64,000 bases of DNA from a virus (Duplodnaviria; Heunggongvirae; Uroviricota; Caudoviricetes), in IMG/VR virus record IMGVR_UViG_2861084961_000001, one strand, 5' to 3'. Under the pieces are notes generated by a model that saw only the letters and a list, made by a program, of their open reading frames with translations, had not been told where the DNA came from and searched no databases. Numbering within the stretch: the stretch's first letter is position 1; the number at the start of each line of letters is the position of its first letter. Positions 14,427 through 54,470 of this stretch are shown here, in pieces. The translations under genes were made by a program, and so were the position numbers.

Positions 14427-16534
14427 ATGTCTAAAAAACGTTCCATCAAAGAGGTTCAGGACTTCCGTGACAGTGTAAAACGAGTAGTCGCTCTCCTTTC
14501 AGGTAAAAACATCCCTGTTGCAGAACGAGGGGACGACGCTTATGTACGCTATAACGATGATGGAGAGCCAATTCTCGTAAACATCCCATCAATCCCGGAT
14601 AACGCAACACCGGCATTGATGAATGCTGTGCGCGGATTTCTCGATCATGAGGTTGCTCACATTTTGTTTACCGATATTCGTGTGTCCAACAAAATGAGAG
14701 AAAAAGGACGCGTTCCTTCCTGGTCACTATGGAATGCCTTAGAAGACGTGTTCATCGAGCGAAAAATGGGGCAGGTCTTTAACGGAACGAGACGTAATCT
14801 GATGGCAACTCAGCGCCTTATAATCGAAAAAGTCTTTAAACCAAAGGCTTCAGAGGCTATTGATTATTGTGGCAAAGATCAGCGCGCGCTTTTTCTAAAC
14901 TTCTTTCTCTGTCCGGTTGTAAGAGCCTGGGATGGCCAAGCACCGTTCGTAGATTTCATGGATGAATACTGGCCTGTCATTGAGAAACCAATTTCATTAT
15001 TAAAAGAACATGGTATCGATGTGGCCGTGCGTAACATGTCTTGCACCGAGGATTGTGTAAAGGTGGCTGCGACCATAGCTAAGATCCTCAAAGACACTGA
15101 AAGTGAAAGCAAAGGTAAGGAGTCAGCTCCGGGAAAAACTTCCGATCCTTCAGATACTGACCAAACGGATGCCTCTGGAGAAAACAATGAAGACAACGAA
15201 GATCATGAGACACCCTCAGCGTTAGATAATCACAAATCTATCGAATCAGAATCACACAGTAAGCACAAACATGATAATAACGACAGTGATGATTCAGATA
15301 ATTCTGAATCATCAGAAACAATATTCGATGATACAGAAAATGATAAAGAGGTATCAGATTCTGATGCTTCTGATAACGCGGCGTCAGAATCATTAACCGC
15401 TGACCACGAAAAAAGAAAAACGACAGAAGACGGCTCTTCAGATATTCCAACTCCGTCAAAAATGAGTCTGGAAGAGGCTTTAGAGGAGCTGGATAGCATA
15501 GAAGATGAAGTCGGAGGCATGACAGAAGATGCTCTATCCGAAACGATTAAAAGCGAGTTAACAGAAAGCTCGAAAGCGAATACAGGCCATACAATCGCTC
15601 ATACGACTTCATCGGCTCGATTGATCAGGCAGAAGCCCATATCAAACGGCTTATTAAAACATTCTCCGATATTGATTTAGGAGGATATCCAATCAGCCGC
15701 TATCGCATCGTTCCTGAAGGCAACCAGCTCTTCGACAAATATATTGAAAAGCATCTTTCGTCAGGTGTTTCGTCGACGCTGGCAAAAGACCTGGAGCGAG
15801 CAATAGCAAGCAGAAACAGAGTTCAGTTTATACCGGGCCAGCGTCGGGGGCGCATTCATGGTTCTAGTATCTACAGATTAGCAATGAATGATGATCGCGT
15901 GTTTCGTAAAAAAGAAGAATCTAAAGCCGTTAACGCCTGTGTTCAACAAGTGATTGATTTATCAGGTTCAATGAGTGGTATAACGATACAATTGGCTCTT
16001 GCAAGTGCATATACCATCGCCGATGCCCTTGATCGAATAAATGTTCCCAACATTATCACCGGCTTCACTACATTTGGTAGTCATATGGCGGCAGGAGAAC
16101 TTAAGGCTGTCAAGTATGAGTTCTCTCGCTTTGAATCTTTAATGCTACCTATCATCAAAAATTGGAATGAAAAGGCAAATTCTCGCGAAGTTCGCTCACG
16201 TATGGGGTGCGTAGGCTACACATTCCCACTTCTTAATAACGTGGATGGTGAAAGCATAGCCAGCCTTGCATCGTTATTTTCTGGTCGCATGGAGGACAAG
16301 AAGATCATGCTTGTTCTAAGCGATGGCGCGCCGTGGGCTGTTGGGAGAGGTTTTGACGCTCATTTGCGTTCGGTTGCGAAGCAAATTGAAACGCAGACTG
16401 ACATTGATTTGATGGCAATTGGCATCATGACTGACGCACCGGAGAGATTTTACGCAAACCATGCCCTGGTAACGAGCGTTGATAGTCTTGGTTCATCTGT
16501 AGTTACTGAACTATCTCGTATCATTTTGAAGTGA
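14427..16534 (+). CDS. CobT-like vWA-domain protein with acidic Ser/Asp-rich linker; frame broken near 15550-15600
   Basis: C-terminal vWA MIDAS motif VIDLSGSMSG; long D/E/S-rich low-complexity region; conserved AACAAAGGATTAGCCATG start context; second frame is open upstream of 15884. Confidence 0.6.
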
Positions 16535-16629: not shown

Positions 16630-16902
16630 ATGACTACTACTGCACTGCAAAATGAAAAAAATCCTTCTGATTACCTTGTTTGCAAGTGGTGCGGAAAATC
16701 ATTTCACTATTTTAAGTCCCATGTAGCCAATGGTAATTGCGAGGGCATTCCTGAGTCAGTAAAAGATGCCGATCCTGACACCGTACTGAAAATGTACACA
16801 ACGCAGTTTCCAGATGAGCCAACGCTATCGAAAAAGGCACTTGATGCAATTCAAGCTAAACGTGCCGAGCAAAAAGCGAAATGGCCAAATCATCTGGCGT
16901 GA
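16630..16902 (+). CDS. Small zinc-ribbon-like protein (90 aa)
   Basis: CKWCGKSFHYFKSH...CEG cysteine/histidine cluster; conserved start context. Confidence 0.4.
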   Translation: MTTTALQNEKNPSDYLVCKWCGKSFHYFKSHVANGNCEGIPESVKDADPDTVLKMYTTQFPDEPTLSKKALDAIQAKRAEQKAKWPNHLA

Positions 16903-17864
16903 CCAATAGCCCAGGCTATACAGGCACAGTTGAGTACAAGACAGATCTGGTCGCAGCTCACGAACTGCTAAATGTAACGGTGAAAGAACTCGGAACAAAA
17001 CGTGGGACGCCGCTCATGGTTAGCGTCAACGTCAATACGCCGTTTCCAGAGTTCGTTCCAGAAGTGAAGAAGGGATACGTATATGGCGACTTCGAACTGA
17101 TCAAAGACATTTTCATGATGCTTGAACTTGGCATACCAGGCTATTTGTGGGGTCATGCAGGAACAGGCAAATCTTCATTGCCTACACAACTATGTGCTTT
17201 GCTCAATCGTCCGTTAATCCGTGCCCAACATACAGCATCAATGGAAGAGGCTCATGTTACGGGACAAATTCTGGCGCGTGATGGCTCTACGTATTTCGAG
17301 CCTGGCTTGCTTGCGCTCGCAATGAAGCATGGCTGGGTTTACCTCGCGGATGAATACGACTTTGCGTTTCCACAGATTCTTGGCGTGTATCAGCCAGTGC
17401 TGGAAGGTGAAGCGTTGGTCATCAAAGAGGCGACTCCAGAATGGCGTCGCATTACTCCGCATGAACGGTTTGCTTTCATTGGCACTGGCAACACGAACGG
17501 ATCTGGTGATGAAACCGGCTTGTACCAGGGTACAAACATCCAGAACGCCGCTAACTTTTCGCGTTTTGGCATCGTTTCGAATGTGAAATACATGAGCAAA
17601 GAGGCAGAGATCAACATGTTGATAAATGCCGGCATCGTGGATGAATACGCTGAAAAGATGGTTAAGTTTGCCGGTATCGTTCGCGATGGATACGAAGAAC
17701 ACCTGATCAGTCAGCCGATTGGCCCTCGTGAACTTTTGTTGTCGGCCAAGATTGGAATGATGCGAGGCGACTTTGTGACAGGTATTGAGCGTTCTTTCAT
17801 TAACAAACTCCCTTCAGCTTCTGCGCAAGCGGCACGTGAAGTTGTTCAAAAAATATTTGGTTAA
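16881..17864 (+). CDS. MoxR/CobS-like AAA+ ATPase
   Basis: Walker A GHAGTGKSS, Walker B WVYLADEYD; size and pairing with vWA protein. Confidence 0.75.
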   Translation: MAKSSGVTNSPGYTGTVEYKTDLVAAHELLNVTVKELGTKRGTPLMVSVNVNTPFPEFVPEVKKGYVYGDFELIKDIFMMLELGIPGYLWGHAGTGKSSLPTQLCALLNRPLIRAQHTASMEEAHVTGQILARDGSTYFEPGLLALAMKHGWVYLADEYDFAFPQILGVYQPVLEGEALVIKEATPEWRRITPHERFAFIGTGNTNGSGDETGLYQGTNIQNAANFSRFGIVSNVKYMSKEAEINMLINAGIVDEYAEKMVKFAGIVRDGYEEHLISQPIGPRELLLSAKIGMMRGDFVTGIERSFINKLPSASAQAAREVVQKIFG

Positions 17865-44512: not shown

Positions 44513-44926
44513 ATGGCAAGAGGTATGTATGTCTTATGCGAAATTGAAGGTGTGCTGGCAAATACCAGCCATCGTAAATCTGTATCTGACGCGGATGCAG
44601 GCCAGCTCATTGCCGGTGATGAACTCATTTTCCCCACCAGCCGTATGTTGCGTGGTTTTGCTCGCTCAGGGGCTGAAGTGGTGCTTATCAGTAGCCGCTC
44701 TGAAACTCTTGAAGCGCCCACTAAACGATGGCTGAAAGATTTTGGTGTTGATTACGACTGGCTTCATCTCGTACCGAATGGCATCAGTTATGAGAAGCAT
44801 ATTAAGCGCACATTAGCGGAGCATAAAGGCGATCTGCTTATCGCTGCGCTGGTGCACGATCCTCGACTCCGTGCCGCTTTAGCTGACTCTCATCATAGAC
44901 CGGTCATCTATGAGGTGGGCAAATGA
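44513..44926 (+). CDS. HAD-like hydrolase fold protein (possible deoxyribonucleotidase) with E-for-D substitutions in motif I
   Basis: YVLCEIEGVLAN in place of canonical DxDGVL; VVLISSRSE motif II-like. Confidence 0.35.
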   Translation: MARGMYVLCEIEGVLANTSHRKSVSDADAGQLIAGDELIFPTSRMLRGFARSGAEVVLISSRSETLEAPTKRWLKDFGVDYDWLHLVPNGISYEKHIKRTLAEHKGDLLIAALVHDPRLRAALADSHHRPVIYEVGK

Positions 44927-45398
44927 AGATGATAGCTGCTGTTGGCCGTAACTATGAGATCGGCATAGCGAACGAACTGCCCTGGCGTTGTTCTACCGAT
45001 CTGAAGCTATTTAAGAGACTCACCAAAAACGCCACTGTCGTTATGGGCGTAAAACGATGGAAAGTCTCAAACGTCCTCTTCCAGAGCGTCATAACCTCGT
45101 TTTGACGCGCTCTCATGGCTTTGTACCAAATGGATTCTACCCTGCTGGTGTGGATGATGTGTTGCGATTACCAGAGCCTGTGTGGGTGATTGGCGGGGAA
45201 CAAATTTACTCGCTATTCATGCCGCATGTTGAAGAGATTTGGCTCTCCCACATCGGCGTTGATGTACCAAACGCTGATGCATTCTTCCCGGCAAGCATGA
45301 TGCGTAACTTAGGCTTTGTGCCTGTTGAAACAGCTTATACCCAACGAGCCAGCGAGGAAGAGCCTGGCTTTTCGCAGATCGTATACAGAAGGTCGTAA
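44923..45398 (+). CDS. folA: Dihydrofolate reductase, frame broken at A-run 45051-45054
   Basis: MIAAVGRNYEIGIANELPW and VMGVK...ESLKRPLPERHNLVLT, VWVIGGEQIY match DHFR; adding one A restores GVKTMESLKRPLPER. Confidence 0.8.
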
Positions 45399-46041
45399 TG
45401 GATTACCGGATTGGGATCACTGGTGCTCAGGGCAGTGGGAAAACAACCCTGGCTAAATATATCGACAAACATTACGGAATCCCTTACGTGGATGCTGGTG
45501 TCGGAAGTTTGATGAGCCGCCTCGGTGTTCGAGTAGGTGAGTCTATGCCTCTATATGAGCGGCTTCAGATTCAAATGGAAATAGCAAAGCATATAGAGCT
45601 ACTTACGCGTGGTGTTGAAGGCTTTGTTATCGATCGCACACCTGCTGATGTTATGGCCTACACGTTGGATTTGGTCGGTCATACCAATGAAGATCGGTGT
45701 ATTGAGTTAGCCCTCGATATCGAAAAGTTTTGCCACAAAACTGCTATTTCAAACTTTAACGCCATTGCTGGCCTACGCCCGGAGTCGCTCTCACAGAGCG
45801 AGATTACTTGCGATCACAACGAGCATCATTAGACCGTCTGTATGTTGCTCGTATTGATGCGTTGATGTGCGGGGAACTGACAAAAATTCACCTGCATCCG
45901 CAAAGGGGAGATCTGCAAACCTTCGTCGTTTCCAACCGATATCGCACGGTTGAAGCAAGAGCCAGATCAGTGATGAGAATGCTAGATAACGCTGTAGAAA
46001 AGATAGAAAACCGGTTCTGTGGCCGAGTGACCGTTCATTAG
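45398..46041 (+). CDS. P-loop kinase (dNMP kinase-like candidate), frame break near 45810
   Basis: Walker A GITGAQGSGKTTLA; two ORFs in -1 relation. Confidence 0.5.
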
Positions 46042-46531: not shown

Positions 46532-47088
46532 ATGACAACGATTGTTGCAGGCATCGATATCGAGTCTACGGGACTGGATTTCCTTGCTGGTCATAAAATT
46601 ATTGAAATCGCAATTACCCGCTATGAACTGGAGACACAGAGACATATTGATAGTCTGGAGATGCGTTTTAACCCTCGCAGAAACATAGATCCGAAAGCTC
46701 AAGCCGTTCATGGCATTTCATTGGAACAGCTCGCAGCTGAACCTTTGTTGTCAAATCATGCCAGCGAAATTGGCGCTTATATGGGGGCATGTAGTGCGTG
46801 GATTGCTCATAACGGCGAAGCGTTTGATATACCATTTATTCGACACGAGTTTTCAGGGTATGGAGTAAGACTGCCAGACGTTCCTGTTATAGATACTATG
46901 TTATCGGGATTGTGGCCACAGAAGACGGTAAACGTCCCCGCCTTGAAGAGTTGGCCTTCTCTCTTGGCTTTATATACGATCATGCCAAAGCACATAGTGC
47001 CTTATATGACACAAACTTAATGATGCAATGCTTCTTTAAGGCACGTAATAAGTACGGATTTTTTAAATTACCCTCTGAAATTGTGTAA
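46532..47088 (+). CDS. DnaQ-like 3'-5' exonuclease (DEDDh), frame break near 46940-46960
   Basis: Exo I GIDIESTGLD, Exo II HNGEAFDIPFI, and Exo III HSALYDTNLM in the -1 frame downstream of a cccc run. Confidence 0.65.
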
Positions 47089-47248
47089 AGCAAAAGCCTA
47101 CTTTAAAGAGAGTTTAAAGTAGGCTTTCTTTTAAAGAACAGTCGCCTTTCAATCATTTCCTGCCTGTATTTAATACTTTTCCGCCTGATAGGTTTAGTCA
47201 AAATATAGCCATCGAAACGCAAATGTAACCAAACAGAAGGAGACTTAC

Positions 47249-48057
47249 ATGAGTTCGGTTGAAAATGTAATGACAAATGATGATCTGGACGAACTGACAG
47301 CTATGTTGCAATCACTTGATGAACCGGTAAAAAAAGCTGCACAGGTTGAGAATACTGATGATATTGACGATCTGCTTCTAGGCCTCGATGCTGGCGTAGC
47401 CATGAGTTCTGATGATGTTGCCGAAGAACTGTTCAATGAAGAAAAAGCAGGTGATTTTAGCTCCGCTTTAAATGAGTTGGAGTTAGCGCATGAGCCTATA
47501 AACGTAATTAACGCTGAAAGTGGTGAAGCTGCCGAAAATGAGCCAGAACAGTTGGGGATCATTGAGGTTGAAGAGTGTGTTGAGGTTAATGATGAATTAA
47601 AAGTTCAACAGTCAAATGATAGCAATACAAATAAAAAGCTCGTGCTGCAAGAGGTCCTCGTTTTACTTTAAGTGATAAAGATGATTCGTTTTTCAATAAA
47701 GCAGGCTTAGAAAAAGATATTTTCTTAGACGCTTATGAAAACGCGCCTGTCAAAGCGAAGGATAAGATATTAAACCTTCTTAATTGGTTTAGCGGAGGTC
47801 CAGATATTAGTGTTTACACGGTAATTTCCATGAGACACCTTCTCACAGAAAAGAAGGCTACAAGTAATAGTATTAAGATTGCTTTAATGAGCAATCCAGA
47901 AAAACCGTATCCGCTTAACACTGCGTCAACTCAGGCTGGGCAAATGATGGCTGTATTTCCAGCTACAGGAATTGCCGTTAGAGACGGTGGAAATCTAACA
48001 TTGAACGAAGAATCACCGATCGTTAAGAAGTTTGTCGCGGAGTACACTATTGGATGA
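47249..48057 (+). CDS. Highly acidic N-terminal protein (DNA-mimic-like anti-restriction candidate), frame break near 47650
   Basis: N-terminal 130 aa rich in D/E; C-terminal part continues in -1 frame; sits immediately upstream of orphan methyltransferase. Confidence 0.4.
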
Positions 48058-48227
48058 CGTTCCCCTACTGAAAATAAAGCCCATAGAGAGCTTTATAGTG
48101 CTGGGTAAGCTAACCCATACCCAGCACCACAAAAACGCGCCAGAGAGCTTCTTGTTCGCATTTCTGGCGCGTTTTATTTGATTGCCATACATAAAATCAA
48201 ATGCAAAAATAGGTAATCACTTACCTA

Positions 48228-48833
48228 TTGAGAAAGAAGATGATTGCAGCCGAAAAAATCAAACAGCGAAAGCGCGACAACTCTCTTCGTGACCTCTGGA
48301 GAACACCTGATTGGCTGTTTTCTGCCATTCAACGTTATCTTGGGGTGACATTTGATGTTGACGTTGCCTGCAACAAGGACAATGCAAAGCTGCCTAATTT
48401 CATAGGCGTTGAGCGTGATGCTTTGAAATCTGAATGGGGACAGCCAGGTACAATTGCCTTCCTCAATCCACCCTACTCCAAAATCTCCCCCTGGATTGAT
48501 GCTGCTATACGTGAGCAGGCTCGCGGAGTTACAACAGTGATGCTAATTCCTCAATCCCTCGATACAAAGTGGTATGAGCGTGCAACAGAGTATGCGAATG
48601 AGACGATTATTCTGTCTGGTGGCCGCGTAGCGTTTGTCGAGCCTGACGTCAATTTGGGTCAGGTAGAAGTAAACATCAACCCCGGTGGCAGTATGCTCGT
48701 TGTTTTTCGAGGATTCTGTCAGGACGCTGGGCACTCTATAAGCAAGATCCCTTTGGACGTAATGAAAAGTCTGGGAGGGTATGATCCTGCGAATGTGGTC
48801 AGGAAAAAAAGACCATCAAAGAAGGCTGCTTAG
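48228..48833 (+). CDS. Phage-type DNA N6-adenine methyltransferase (orphan)
   Basis: Catalytic motif FLNPPYS; ~200 aa; no adjacent restriction endonuclease. Confidence 0.7.
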   Translation: MRKKMIAAEKIKQRKRDNSLRDLWRTPDWLFSAIQRYLGVTFDVDVACNKDNAKLPNFIGVERDALKSEWGQPGTIAFLNPPYSKISPWIDAAIREQARGVTTVMLIPQSLDTKWYERATEYANETIILSGGRVAFVEPDVNLGQVEVNINPGGSMLVVFRGFCQDAGHSISKIPLDVMKSLGGYDPANVVRKKRPSKKAA

Positions 48834-48858
48834 TTTGTTCTGGCGAGTGTAATTAACC

Positions 48859-48912
48859 TGCTTCTGTATATAAATAACTACATATTAATTATTAATATAC
48901 GGAAGCAGGCTG
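48859..48912. repeat. Large hairpin cctgcttctgtatat...atatacggaagcagg, second copy of element at 2249..2306
   Basis: Near-identical stems in both copies. Confidence 0.6.
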
Positions 48913-49249: not shown

Positions 49250-49830
49250 TAGATAAGTACAAACTATTCATAAGATGGATTGTAAGTGCTAAGATCTGAT
49301 AGTTTCCAGTCGTAGACTGGAGACTCGACCTGATGGGTGGGGGTAAGCGTCACTGGCGTCAGGTTTAAAAAAGCTCACTACCAGCGTAGAACCGGTGCCG
49401 TTTAGGTGTCGGGGAAGGGGGAACCAAAGTGAGCGGAGACAAGGGTCACTTTATGATTGTCGAGTCTGGGATGTTTCGAGAGGTTGAATCCAGTACTCCC
49501 CTTCATAAAGTGTGGGAAGATCTCGGTTCTGGGGTGCTGTCATCCATAACTTCCCAAGTCTAAGCTGGCAGTAGACTTAGACCATAGCTTTTCAGGTTAT
49601 GAAACGACCAGGTTGGTGAGGAATTTTATACTCACCTCCCTGGGAGAGTATTACCTGAAAAGACAACCTCTCACTTCGTTCGAGGTGAACTTCACTCACT
49701 TCGTTCGTTCAGTTCAGGTTTATAAAAACCTGTACTGGGAAGTAATTTGTTTATTTTAATAATTATTACACGCACGCGTGTGCGCACGCGCGAGGAAAAA
49801 ATCGGCGCGGCGCTTGATTCAGGAGTTTAT

Positions 49831-50421
49831 ATGACGTCGAAGACACCAGCCCGGTCGCAAGCAAAAACTCGCAAAAAAGACAAAAACAAAAATTCTCCCC
49901 GCACCAATCCCACAACGCCTGTCGTAGAGTTCAATCCCCAGCTTAAAACCGTGAAAATCTTCAGTGATGGCTCTTGCCTTAAAAATCCGGGTGGCCCGGG
50001 CGGTTACGGTATAGTTCTCCAGTATCGTGGTGAGGAACGCGAGTTCTCAGATGGTTTTCATAGCACCACCAATAACCGCATGGAGATGATGGGGGCACTT
50101 ATCGGGCTGGAGCGTTTGAAATATCCATGCAACGTTATTTTGCACTCTGATAGCCAGTATCTGAAAAACGGCATGACACAGTGGATGAAATGGTGGAAAC
50201 GCAATGGATGGATGACTTCTGACAAAAAACCGGTAAAGAATGTTGATCTGTGGAAGCGTCTGGATGAGGCCGCAAGTCGACATAATGTTCGCTGGAAGTG
50301 GGTTAAAGGTCACGCCGGGCATCGTGAAAATGAAATATGTGATCGACTCGCGAAGATCGCAGCTTTTTCCGCAGCAGATATGCCTCACAAGAAAGATATT
50401 GGTTTTGTTTATAACAAGTAG
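49831..50421 (+). CDS. rnhA: Ribonuclease HI with short basic N-terminal extension
   Basis: [62 protein letters not shown] closely match E. coli RNase HI; start at ATG 49831 rather than ORF start 49747. Confidence 0.85.
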
Positions 50422-52643: not shown

Positions 52644-52784
52644 TACTGCACCAGTCGACAGGGGGCGAAAGCCCCCATTTTTACGCCTTAAATCTGCTGT
52701 AACGCCTATGAATGCAGCTTTTATGCCTTTTCAAGTTTGCGATAATTACACCAATAAGAAAACAAATTATTTAATGGTGTAATT

Positions 52785-54470
52785 ATGAATACAGCCCTTT
52801 CCATCATCGACGATGCCAGCTCAAACACGGCTATCGACTATCGTCAGGAAATGAATGTCATCCACGAAATCGTGGACGAGTGCGAGAAAGAGATCGCCTT
52901 CATGTATCAGGTACACGACTTCGTTTATGGCGACGAACGCCACAACATGATTAATCGCCTGCTGAGACTAAACCATCGACCAGATGAAGATCGCTCGCGT
53001 TTAAATCGAGGTTGGTTGGATAAAGTTGATCTGGAATGGGTGAAACAGAATATTTGGGCCGAGTACTGGAGGAAGGTCACGGACATGACTAACGTTTTGC
53101 TGATCATGCCAGCTTCCCGTCGAGATGAGTGGCGCGAGCAGTTTATAGAGGGCAAACAGGAAGTCATCAAAACTGACAGAACCGGCTACCAGATGAAGGT
53201 TAAAGAGTTCGTTGGTGTACCGGAGTTCAAAGCAGAAACGGTCATACCCACGATGCTTAATTTGCTGAATGACAGGCACAAATATCTCTCTGAGCGCGTG
53301 TATGGCTTGTTTAAGGCGCTGAGTCCTGCGCACAAGACAAATAAGACAAACGGTTTCAGCGAGCGTCTGATAATCGCTGACTGCATTTCTGATTTCTGGC
53401 GGGACAGCGTTAGCGTGAACTATCGCAAAGAGGACTACATCGACGATCTGCGTGTCTTGCTTCATTTCTTCGCGCACAAAGAATTTATTACCATCAACCG
53501 CACTGCTGAGGTGCTATCAGCTGCGTATCGGGCAAACGACTGCCAGACCGGTGACTGGATGAACGTCGATGGAAATCTGATGCGCGTGAAGATGTTCAAG
53601 AACGGCAACGTTCACTTTGAAATACATCCTGACGTGGCCTGGAAGTTGAATGAGGTGCTGGCTTACAGTATGCCTGCTGCAATCCCCGCGCCATGCCGAA
53701 CTGCGCCAAAAACACGGGCACCAAAGCAGTTCGGTTTAATCCAGAAGACGATCTCCGTGCCGGTTCGCACTGCGCTTCGTGACGGGCGATTGAGCAAAGA
53801 CAAAGGCGTATGGTACTTCTCTGATTCAGCTCTCCAGAAGTCGCAGGTGGAAGAGCTTGAGCGCACACTGAGCTTCATTGGCGGCGTGCAGGAGAAAAAG
53901 CACTGGCAGTTCCCGTATGACATCGGCCATACGCTAAATACGATTGTGGCTACCGGTTTAATACCGGATACAAAATCACACCAGTTCTACCCTACCCCAC
54001 GCTTGATTGCTGAGTACGTTGCCAGAGCCACTGAATTGAAGCCTGGTGAGAAGCTGCTTGAGCCTCACGCCGGACGTGGGGATCTTCTGGCCTATATTAA
54101 CGCCGATCTGGAAGATGTTACCTGCATAGAAATCGCACCTCTCTTCGCTGATATCCTGCGTGGAAAAGGGTATACGAACACGATTTGCTGCGACTTCATA
54201 AAGTGGTCTGAGGACAACGCAGGTTATCAGTTCGACAAAATCGTTATGAACCCGCCGTACTCGCTTGGTCGTCATAGGGAGCACACGATGGCTGCGCTGG
54301 GGCATCTGAAAGTCGGCGGGCGTCTTGTAGCAGTATTGCCGGGCACTGCGCCAATACTGGACTGGATGACGATGGATAATTACGTTTATGCCAGAGGGAA
54401 GTCGTTTACCAACGAGTTTGAAGACACAGGGATCACAGTCAGCGTATACGTTTTCAAACGCGTTAAATGA
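52785..54470 (+). CDS. Large protein with C-terminal N6-adenine DNA methyltransferase domain and ~400 aa N-terminal domain of unknown function
   Basis: FYPTP, LLEPHAGRGDLLAYI (SAM-binding) and VMNPPYS (catalytic) in C-terminal third; 561 aa intact ORF. Confidence 0.7.
   Translation: MNTALSIIDDASSNTAIDYRQEMNVIHEIVDECEKEIAFMYQVHDFVYGDERHNMINRLLRLNHRPDEDRSRLNRGWLDKVDLEWVKQNIWAEYWRKVTDMTNVLLIMPASRRDEWREQFIEGKQEVIKTDRTGYQMKVKEFVGVPEFKAETVIPTMLNLLNDRHKYLSERVYGLFKALSPAHKTNKTNGFSERLIIADCISDFWRDSVSVNYRKEDYIDDLRVLLHFFAHKEFITINRTAEVLSAAYRANDCQTGDWMNVDGNLMRVKMFKNGNVHFEIHPDVAWKLNEVLAYSMPAAIPAPCRTAPKTRAPKQFGLIQKTISVPVRTALRDGRLSKDKGVWYFSDSALQKSQVEELERTLSFIGGVQEKKHWQFPYDIGHTLNTIVATGLIPDTKSHQFYPTPRLIAEYVARATELKPGEKLLEPHAGRGDLLAYINADLEDVTCIEIAPLFADILRGKGYTNTICCDFIKWSEDNAGYQFDKIVMNPPYSLGRHREHTMAALGHLKVGGRLVAVLPGTAPILDWMTMDNYVYARGKSFTNEFEDTGITVSVYVFKRVK

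What the first reader, a model, noticed from the sequence alone, without database searches (positions are those of the whole stretch)
47249..48833. Candidate anti-restriction pair: highly acidic protein followed by an orphan Dam-type N6-adenine methyltransferase
The first about 130 residues of the 47249 gene are dominated by Asp and Glu, as in DNA-mimic anti-restriction proteins. The next gene is a small NPPY methyltransferase with no cognate endonuclease. Together they would protect incoming DNA from host restriction by mimicry and by methylation.
Basis: inference. Interest (0 to 1): 0.6.

Follow-up and report, generated by a model that had tools for sequence, protein, structure and literature searches.

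The report
Broken acidic winged-helix gene plus Dam methylase
The "acidic protein" is the front half of an ordinary 269-residue phage-plasmid gene, split here by a one-base sequencing-type error, and its neighbour is a common, already annotated phage Dam-type methylase; nothing indicates that the two act together against restriction.

Summary
The window is an SSU5/pHCM2-type E. coli phage-plasmid of about 110 kb. The acidic stretch is real: 35 Asp/Glu against 6 Lys/Arg in 130 residues. The 140-aa ORF is not a gene. Relatives carry one 269-aa ORF; the window has A5 instead of A6 at 47633-47637. That is one of about 24 one-base deletions, mostly at short base runs, in 23 kb.

Its conserved neighbour is the upstream DnaQ-like exonuclease (50 of 59 diverse loci). 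The methylase is downstream in only 8 of 59. Hairpins followed by U-rich sequence bracket each gene.

The methylase (48240-48833) is a bona fide PF05869/TIGR01712 enzyme with NPPY and no nuclease partner. Its exact sequence sits on about 997 public contigs under that name. Protection from restriction by this enzyme alone is plausible. The DNA-mimic and "pair" readings are not supported. Interest is low.

The parts
47093..47127 (+). Hairpin (15-bp stem, 5-nt loop) followed by a U-run, after the upstream DnaQ-like exonuclease gene. It is a likely intrinsic terminator that isolates the acidic gene from the exonuclease transcript.
   Evidence: MFE -19.2 kcal/mol, z = -4.2, 0 of 200 shuffles fold as well.
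47249..47637 (+). N-terminal acidic half of the 269-aa gene, as far as it reads in the original frame. It has a conserved amphipathic motif (DDLDELTAMLQSLD, residues 11-24), followed by a variable poly-acidic linker.
   Evidence: Residues 1-135 have 35 D/E, 8 K/R and 2 aromatic residues. AF2 pLDDT is 52-67 and the chain is mostly coil. Identity is 42-55% in pairs where the C-terminal half is 74-80% identical.
47633..47637 (+). A5 homopolymer where all relatives have A6. This one-base deletion creates the false stop at 47669-47671.
   Evidence: alignment. Searches show the same type of deletion at many other short base runs in the window.
47638..48057 (+). C-terminal half of the same gene in the -1 frame (139 codons plus stop). 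It holds a basic linker (ARAARGPRF) and the conserved winged-helix domain.
48132..48175 (+). Strong hairpin followed by a U-run, between the winged-helix gene and the methylase. It is a likely intrinsic terminator.
   Evidence: MFE -25.8 kcal/mol, z = -5.0, 0 of 200 shuffles fold as well.
48182..48210 (+). Sigma-70-like promoter match (TTGCCA, 17-nt spacer, AAAAAT, with TG before the second hexamer) upstream of the methylase.
   Evidence: This is a consensus match only; the number of such matches in the region is no higher than in shuffles.
48240..48833 (+). Orphan phage N6-adenine DNA methyltransferase of 197 aa (T1 Dam / PF05869 / TIGR01712 family). NPPY lies at 48465-48476 (residues 76-79).
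   Evidence: PF05869, E = 2.2e-38, 132 bits against a cut-off of 28.1. TIGR01712, 113.9 bits against 97.05; phrog_111. PADLOC orphan MTase models; the exact sequence is on about 997 contigs under this name.
48857..48909 (+). Long hairpin followed by U-rich sequence, after the methylase gene.
   Evidence: MFE -28.2 kcal/mol, z = -4.2.

Best explanation
The region holds two independent, ordinary genes of an SSU5/pHCM2-type phage-plasmid.

Gene 1 (47249-48057)
- It is a single 269-aa gene. In this window it is split by a one-base under-call in an A6 run, which is most likely an assembly or sequencing error.
- Its product has a C-terminal winged-helix domain that is nearly invariant across the family.
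- Its N-terminal tail of about 130 residues is poly-acidic and predicted to be disordered. The tail begins with a short conserved amphipathic helix.
- Inferred mechanism: the winged helix binds double-stranded DNA. The acidic tail acts as a flexible partner-recruiting arm, an auto-inhibitory DNA-like arm, or both. The tails of T7 gp2.5 and T4 gp32 are the analogy (from my own knowledge, not tested here).
- Inferred setting: the protein works within the early replication and nucleotide-metabolism module, next to the DnaQ-like exonuclease that is its conserved neighbour.

Gene 2 (48240-48833)
- It is a T1-Dam-type orphan N6-adenine methyltransferase.
- It appears to be its own transcription unit and is found at this position only in the SSU5 lineage.
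- Inferred mechanism: it methylates the element's DNA, probably at GATC or a related site. This would give protection from methylation-sensitive restriction or keep Dam-dependent functions working during rapid replication.

Shown here: the gene structure, the fold, the family memberships and the synteny statistics.
Inferred: DNA binding, the role of the tail, the methylase target site and the biological roles.
For: Identity of the element:
- 207 E. coli plasmid records of about 110 kb match, as do phages Cyrano, PhiR41_1 and SSU5.

Single 269-aa gene:
- Searches show one ORF in annotated relatives. 76 of 79 IMG/VR loci are intact.
- Error signature: about 24 one-base deletions, mostly at short base runs, in 23 kb and 6 in 7.7 kb. 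The same pattern appears to split the DHFR, AAA ATPase and exonuclease reading frames in the window.
- The 140-aa product is absent from public proteins.

Fold:
- AF2 gives the C-terminal domain pLDDT 96-98 and the N-terminal half 52-67, mostly coil.

Family:
- PHROG 5235, E = 2.4e-149, and PHROG 3932.
- 637 cluster representatives share the architecture. Their N-termini are 17-34% D/E in most cases, with a recurring (D/E)LDxL(L/F)xxL(D/E)-like motif.

Synteny:
- The exonuclease lies upstream on the same strand in 50 of 59 diverse loci, and in nickie, B1VFA, BUCTxx99, L088 and L089.
- The methylase lies downstream in 8 of 59 loci.

Transcription signals:
- Hairpins followed by U-rich sequence lie on both sides of each gene.

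Methylase:
- Family scores are (1556 phage records).
- M.EcoT1Dam modifies GATC, and a 35%-identical relative modifies GATC with off-target activity (PMC4996451).
Against: - No experiment or characterised homologue fixes the function of gene 1. There is no Pfam, NCBIfam, PADLOC or PDB sequence match.
- The winged-helix domain is about charge-neutral (14 D/E, 16 K/R). Its putative recognition helix is nearly invariant across distant phages. This could equally mean protein binding rather than sequence-specific DNA binding.
- The frameshift could be a genuine mutation in this isolate rather than an error. Sequence alone cannot distinguish the two.
- Within the SSU5 lineage the methylase is always next door, so a lineage-specific functional link cannot be excluded.
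- The methylase target site was not determined. That T1 Dam belongs to PF05869 is my own knowledge; the 'phages' hits do include T1-like phages.
Confidence: 0.75

Rival explanations
1. The acidic protein is a DNA-mimic anti-restriction protein of the Ocr or ArdA kind. Together with the orphan methylase it forms a two-part anti-restriction module.
For: - The composition is as acidic as known mimics: 27% D/E and net -29 over 130 residues.
- The methylase is immediately downstream throughout the SSU5 lineage.
- Both genes lie in an early-type gene block.
- An acidic tail tethered to a DNA-binding domain could in principle compete for DNA-binding enzymes.
Against: - There is no Pfam hit of any kind, even at E <= 1.
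- The tail is predicted to be disordered, has 2 aromatic residues in 135, varies in length from 101 to 187 residues and is poorly conserved. The known mimics are, as far as I know, compact folded proteins.
- The tail is always fused to a winged-helix domain, which is the conserved part.
- Family-wide, the conserved neighbour is the exonuclease and not the methylase.
- A hairpin followed by a U-run separates the two genes.
Confidence: 0.07
2. Gene 1 is a transcription factor. For example, it could activate middle or late phage genes or repress host genes. The winged helix would recognise a conserved promoter element and the acidic N-terminus would contact RNA polymerase.
For: - The best structural matches are ArsR, MarR, PadR and Fur transcription regulators.
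- The conserved N-terminal amphipathic acidic helix resembles an activation or contact peptide.
- The gene appears to be its own transcription unit.
Against: - No target motif was sought or found.
- The conserved linkage is to an exonuclease and nucleotide-metabolism block.
Confidence: 0.25
3. The A5 run is real and biologically meaningful. Either the gene is a pseudogene in this isolate, or the A-run is a programmed -1 frameshift site that yields both a 140-aa acidic protein and a 269-aa fusion.
For: - The break lies in AAT AAA AAG. A-rich runs can be slippery, and a -1 shift there restores the full reading frame.
Against: - All relatives examined have A6 and a single ORF, so no frameshifting is needed.
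- The window shows the same one-base loss at about 24 other positions, mostly short base runs, including inside conserved enzyme genes.
- The truncated product is unique to this window.
Confidence: 0.08

Closest known systems
Phage T1 Dam-type N6-adenine methyltransferases (Pfam PF05869 'Dam', TIGR01712 phage_N6A_met; M.EcoT1Dam)
   Same: - It scores above both curated cut-offs.
- It has the NPPY catalytic motif and is small (197 aa).
- It is phage-borne and has no nuclease partner.
- The identical protein is already named this way on about 997 contigs.
   Different: Nothing structural differs. The target sequence of this particular enzyme is untested. Relatives range from GATC-specific to GATC with off-target activity (PMC4996451).
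PHROG 5235 / PHROG 3932 (phage protein families of unknown function; SSU5_087, Cyrano CYRAN_78, nickie gp063)
   Same: - The repaired gene matches PHROG 5235 over its full length (E = 2.4e-149).
- All 100 diverse relatives tested match both PHROGs.
- The architecture and the position after the DnaQ-like exonuclease are the same.
   Different: The window copy is split by a one-base deletion. No member of either family has a known function.
Winged-helix DNA-binding proteins (ArsR/SmtB, MarR, PadR, Fur; linker histone globular domain)
   Different: - There is no sequence similarity (6-17% identity) and no Pfam match.
- An extra loop (SNPEKPYP) precedes the putative recognition helix.
- The domain carries a 130-residue acidic tail, which those regulators lack.
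- No dimerisation element is evident.
DNA-mimic anti-restriction proteins Ocr (T7 gp0.3) and ArdA
   Same: They share only the high density of Asp and Glu.
   Different: - There is no homology.
- The stretch is not a stand-alone protein.
- It is predicted to be disordered rather than a compact fold with charges arranged like DNA.
- The acidic region is the least conserved part of the protein.
Acidic tails of phage DNA-binding proteins (T7 gp2.5, T4 gp32, bacterial SSB). This is an analogy from my own knowledge.
   Same: A DNA-binding domain is joined to a disordered acidic tail. In those proteins the tail both competes with DNA and recruits replisome partners. The gene also lies in a replication and nucleotide-metabolism block.
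   Different: - Here the tail is N-terminal and about 130 residues long, far longer than in those proteins.
- The DNA-binding fold is a winged helix, not an OB fold.
- No partner is known.

Membership tests
PF05869 / TIGR01712 phage N6-adenine methyltransferase (T1 Dam type) | Profile score above the curated cut-off over most of the model | tested here: met
   PF05869: 132 bits against 28.1, profile positions 5-160 of 169. TIGR01712 equivalog: 113.9 bits against 97.05.
PF05869 / TIGR01712 phage N6-adenine methyltransferase (T1 Dam type) | Catalytic motif IV, (D/N)PPY | tested here: met
   FLNPPYS, residues 74-80. NPPY lies at 48465-48476.
PF05869 / TIGR01712 phage N6-adenine methyltransferase (T1 Dam type) | Orphan status: no cognate restriction endonuclease next to it | tested here: met
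   Pfam identifies the neighbours as a DnaQ-like RNase_T exonuclease, the 269-aa winged-helix protein, a 76-aa protein of unknown function, RNase HI, a TerB-like protein and a DUF4942 protein. None has a restriction-endonuclease domain. PADLOC's best hits are its 'orphan methyltransferase' models.
PF05869 / TIGR01712 phage N6-adenine methyltransferase (T1 Dam type) | m6A formation at GATC or a related site | not testable with these tools
   This needs methylome sequencing or a digestion assay. The only basis is the literature on relatives (PMC4996451).
DNA-mimic anti-restriction proteins (Ocr, ArdA) | Sequence membership in the Pfam families for Ocr or ArdA | tested here: not met
   Neither the 140-aa ORF nor the 269-aa protein gives any such hit at E <= 1. 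Only noise hits below cut-off appear. That Pfam-A contains Ocr and ArdA models is from my own knowledge.
DNA-mimic anti-restriction proteins (Ocr, ArdA) | Small stand-alone protein with a compact fold that displays DNA-like charge | tested here: not met
   The acidic stretch is the tail of a 269-aa protein in all relatives. Its AF2 pLDDT is 52-67 and it is mostly coil even with a 100-sequence alignment. It has 2 aromatic residues in 135 and varies in length from 101 to 187.
DNA-mimic anti-restriction proteins (Ocr, ArdA) | Binds and inhibits type I restriction enzymes | not testable with these tools
   This needs plating-efficiency or binding assays.
Winged-helix DNA-binding domain | Helix-turn-helix followed by a beta-hairpin wing, with structural similarity to known members | tested here: met
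Winged-helix DNA-binding domain | Actual DNA binding | not testable with these tools
   Inference from the fold only. The domain is about charge-neutral.
Two-gene functional module (acidic protein plus methylase) | Adjacency conserved across the family of the acidic protein | tested here: not met
   The methylase lies within 5 kb downstream in 8 of 59 diverse loci. It is absent in nickie, B1VFA, BUCTxx99 and L089. The exonuclease lies upstream in 50 of 59.
Two-gene functional module (acidic protein plus methylase) | Co-transcription | tested here: inconclusive
   A strong hairpin followed by a U-run (z = -5.0) and a promoter-like site lie between the genes. Read-through cannot be excluded without RNA data.

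The most novel reading that the evidence does not exclude
The 269-aa family (PHROG 5235/3932) may be an unrecognised functional class. The evidence has these elements:
- The family has at least 637 clusters at 50% identity.
- It appears to be a regular gene of siphophages and phage-plasmids of about 105-122 kb across Proteobacteria.
- A nearly invariant winged helix is tethered to a long poly-acidic disordered tail with a conserved N-terminal peptide.
- The gene is linked to a stand-alone DnaQ-like exonuclease.

Possible roles are a replisome or nucleoid factor that targets or regulates the exonuclease, or a DNA-anchored electrostatic decoy that shields phage DNA from host DNA-binding defence proteins.
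Probability: 0.15. Interest if true: 0.5.

Novelty: already known. Interest (0 to 1): 0.15.

Why it matters
It matters little as an anti-restriction finding:
- The methylase is a textbook orphan phage Dam that is already annotated in hundreds of identical copies.
- The "acidic protein" results from a broken reading frame.

Two points are useful.
- The window carries systematic one-base deletions, mostly at short base runs. Any short or odd ORF in it should be checked against relatives before it is interpreted.
- The repaired gene belongs to a large, entirely uncharacterised phage family. Its architecture is striking and conserved: an acidic disordered tail, a winged helix, and a position just downstream of a DnaQ-like exonuclease. 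It is a reasonable, though not urgent, target for functional work on SSU5-type phage-plasmids, which are common in clinical Enterobacteriaceae.

Tried and rejected
- Programmed -1 frameshift at AAT AAA AAG. I rejected it because relatives have A6 and one ORF, and the window has about 24 similar deletions elsewhere.
- My recollection that the non-specific methylase Hia5 belongs to this family. I checked the paper: Hia5 has FxGxG followed by DPPY at residue 194, a different layout. I dropped the idea (PMC3299994).
- Sequence searches against PDB with the full-length profile and the C-terminal profile. Only noise came back. The methylase also has no PDB relative by sequence.
- Foldseek against PDB and BFVD gave only weak or unnamed hits. 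The AFDB50 library was unavailable.
- Pfam scan of 100 diverse family members found no domain. NCBIfam and PADLOC found nothing for gene 1.
- The search for related loci failed with a 71-sequence alignment and with three single distant proteins. A small 8-sequence alignment worked.
- GATC frequency in the window is 271 sites, observed/expected 0.84. This is uninformative about the methylase target.
- Literature searches on SSU5 and phage-plasmids found no statement about either gene.

Full report
**What the window is**

The 2-kb region is 97-98% identical to Escherichia phages PhiR41_1, Cyrano and CMS-2020a. It is 97-99.9% identical to about 176 PLSDB plasmids and 207 RefSeq E. coli replicons of about 106-115 kb. 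These include pG749_2 and p1 of strain C6. Salmonella phage SSU5 carries the same genes at 79-86% protein identity. The window is therefore an SSU5/pHCM2-type phage-plasmid.

Taking gene names from the annotated relative L003, the local gene order is:
- nrdA, nrdB, a MazG-like gene and thymidylate synthase;
- a small ORF, DHFR (dfrA51 in RefSeq) and an AAA ATPase;
- a 139-aa unknown and a DnaQ-like 3'-5' exonuclease;
- the gene at issue, the methylase, a 76-aa unknown and RNase HI.

**Checking the observation**

The acidic stretch is real. Residues 1-130 of the ORF at 47249 hold 35 Asp/Glu and 6 Lys/Arg. Among all 130-residue stretches in six frames, net -29 is the second most acidic in the window. 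The mean is 0.65 and the sd 6.9. The most acidic stretch is a CobT-like gene at 14427-15680.

The 140-aa ORF (47249-47671) is not the gene.
- In Cyrano, PhiR41_1, strain C6 plasmid p1 and pG749_2 the gene is 810 nt, or 269 aa.
- In 76 of 79 IMG/VR loci it is one ORF of 263-318 aa.
- The alignment shows A5 in the window where relatives have A6, at 47633-47637.
- After this deletion the remaining 139 codons continue in the -1 frame to the stop at 48055-48057.

The deletion is one of many. Against the closest relative the window has about 24 one-base gaps in 23 kb. Nearly all are deletions in the window and most lie at short base runs. Against pG749_2 there are 6 in 7.7 kb. The same pattern appears to split the DHFR, AAA ATPase and exonuclease reading frames. 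The exact 140-aa product is not among 15 billion public proteins. This is the signature of uncorrected long-read assembly error. A real mutation cannot be formally excluded.

**The methylase**

- From the ATG at 48240 it is 197 aa, as annotated in relatives.
- It scores 132 bits on PF05869 'Dam' (cut-off 28.1) and 113.9 bits on TIGR01712 (cut-off 97.05).
- NPPY is at residues 76-79.
- PADLOC's best hits are its orphan-methyltransferase models.
- None of the neighbours has a restriction-endonuclease domain.
- Relatives occur in 1556 phage records, including T1-like and Stx phages.
- The identical protein sits on about 997 contigs, already named 'phage N-6-adenine-methyltransferase'.
- M.EcoT1Dam methylates GATC. 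A 35%-identical relative methylates GATC with off-target activity (PMC4996451).

**What gene 1 is**

The repaired protein matches PHROG 5235 end to end (E = 2.4e-149). Its C-terminal part matches PHROG 3932. Both have unknown function. It has no Pfam, NCBIfam, PADLOC or PDB sequence match.

AlphaFold2 with 36 and then 100 homologues gives two very different halves.
- The C-terminal domain (about residues 140-269) has pLDDT 96-98.
- Residues 1-135 have pLDDT 52-67, with only two short helices (10-23 and 71-79).

Within the SSU5 group the N-terminal half behaves like a disordered tail.
- It is 42-55% identical in pairs where the C-terminal half is 74-80% identical.
- Its length varies from 101 to 187 residues.
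- It has 2 aromatic residues in 135.

The only well-conserved N-terminal element is an amphipathic acidic helix, DDLDELTAMLQSLD.

**The wider family**

A profile of the C-terminal domain finds 637 cluster representatives at 50% identity with E <= 0.001.
- Almost all are 220-340 aa with the domain at the C-terminus.
- In 44 of the 46 I tabulated, the N-terminal part is net acidic (14-34% D/E, net -5 to -47).
- It usually begins with a similar (D/E)LDxL(L/F)xxL(D/E) motif.

The acidic tail is therefore a conserved property, but as composition and not as a fold. Named phage hosts include Pseudomonas (nickie), Rhizobium (B1VFA, RHEph10) and Stenotrophomonas (BUCTxx99). All have genomes of about 105-122 kb.

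**Is it a pair with the methylase?**

Within the SSU5 lineage the methylase is always downstream. Outside it the picture differs.
- Nickie, B1VFA and BUCTxx99 have no methylase homologue within 5-7 kb.
- A Raoultella-type phage-plasmid with a 38%-identical homologue also has none.
- In 59 further diverse IMG/VR loci, a PF05869-type methylase lies downstream in 8, all close to SSU5.
- In the same 59 loci, a DnaQ-like exonuclease lies upstream on the same strand in 50, usually directly adjacent.

In the window, strong hairpins followed by U-rich sequence lie in three places:
- after the exonuclease (47093-47127, z = -4.2);
- between gene 1 and the methylase (48132-48175, z = -5.0);
- after the methylase (48857-48909, z = -4.2).

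A promoter-like site precedes the methylase. The methylase thus looks like a separately transcribed accessory gene that occupies this slot in one lineage. The conserved partner of gene 1 is the exonuclease and nucleotide-metabolism block.

**How it most likely works**

Shown here: one 269-aa gene, a disordered acidic tail plus a winged helix, linkage to the exonuclease, and a bona fide orphan Dam-type methylase.

Inferred for gene 1:
- It is an early DNA-binding protein that acts in replication, nucleotide salvage or transcription.
- Its tail recruits a partner, tempers DNA binding, or both, in the manner of the acidic tails of T7 gp2.5 and T4 gp32 (analogy from my own knowledge).

Inferred for the methylase: it modifies the element's own DNA, probably at GATC or a related site. 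That would protect it from methylation-sensitive restriction or sustain Dam-dependent processes.

The DNA-mimic reading keeps a small probability (about 0.07). The acidic region is unfolded, variable, fused to a DNA-binding domain and unrelated to known mimic families. A transcription-factor reading (about 0.25) is a sub-case that I cannot separate from the replication-associated one.

**Verdict**

The composition and the methylase are right; the gene model is wrong.
- Both genes are already present and annotated in hundreds of public replicons, so novelty is nil for the finding as stated.
- The one item of modest interest is that PHROG 5235/3932 is a large, conserved and wholly uncharacterised family with an unusual architecture.

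Noticed in passing
window 24335-52625 (examples: 45044, 45780, 46913, 47632, 51403, 51841): There are about 24 one-base deletions against the nearest relatives, mostly at short base runs. They appear to split several conserved genes into two ORFs: DHFR at 44923-45398, the AAA ATPase at 45398-46041, and the DnaQ-like exonuclease at 46532-47088. Any unusual short ORF in this window should be checked against relatives first.
   Followed up: yes
window 14427-15680 (+), continuing at 15884-16534 and 16881-17864: The most acidic stretch in the window (net -35 over 130 aa) lies in a long ORF. By eye it resembles a CobT-like protein, followed by vWA-like and CobS/MoxR-like AAA genes. It also appears interrupted. 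It shows that acidity alone does not mark anti-restriction proteins here.
   Followed up: partly
window about 52784-54469 (+), equivalent to L003 26508-28193: A second candidate DNA methyltransferase lies 4 kb downstream. It is a 561-aa DUF4942 protein (PF13708, E = 1.8e-20), annotated 'DNA methyltransferase' in SSU5 (SSU5_095). No nuclease domain was found in its neighbours.
   Followed up: partly
window 44923-45398 (+): RefSeq names the DHFR gene of this phage-plasmid dfrA51, 'trimethoprim-resistant dihydrofolate reductase', in the closest relatives. It sits in the phage nucleotide-metabolism block. It may be a phage housekeeping gene that resistance annotation has picked up.
   Followed up: no
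window 47093-47127, 48132-48175, 48857-48909: Three consecutive genes (exonuclease, winged-helix gene, methylase) are each followed by a strong hairpin and U-rich sequence. In two hairpins, A-runs pair with the U-runs, which would allow termination in both directions. The block looks like a string of single-gene transcription units.
   Followed up: partly
window 49747-50421 (+); L003 22578-23226; L087 5578-6223: RefSeq flags the RNase HI gene downstream as frameshifted or incomplete in the two closest complete plasmids. SSU5 and Cyrano carry intact versions. The N-terminal extension of the window ORF (a Lys/Arg/Thr-rich leader) is unusual.
   Followed up: no
P0056-P0198 (family of gene 1); window 47279-47320: A short acidic amphipathic motif recurs near the N-terminus of most family members, from Rhizobium to E. 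coli phages, although the rest of the tail diverges. Examples are DLDELTAMLQSLD, ELDAMFDDLE and DLDALLADVE. It looks like a partner-binding peptide, but the partner is unknown.
   Followed up: partly
L003 34377-37668 (window about 60-64 kb): The phage-plasmid carries host-like apbC (an iron-sulfur carrier) and a full-length metG (methionyl-tRNA synthetase). These are unusual cargo for a phage.
   Followed up: no
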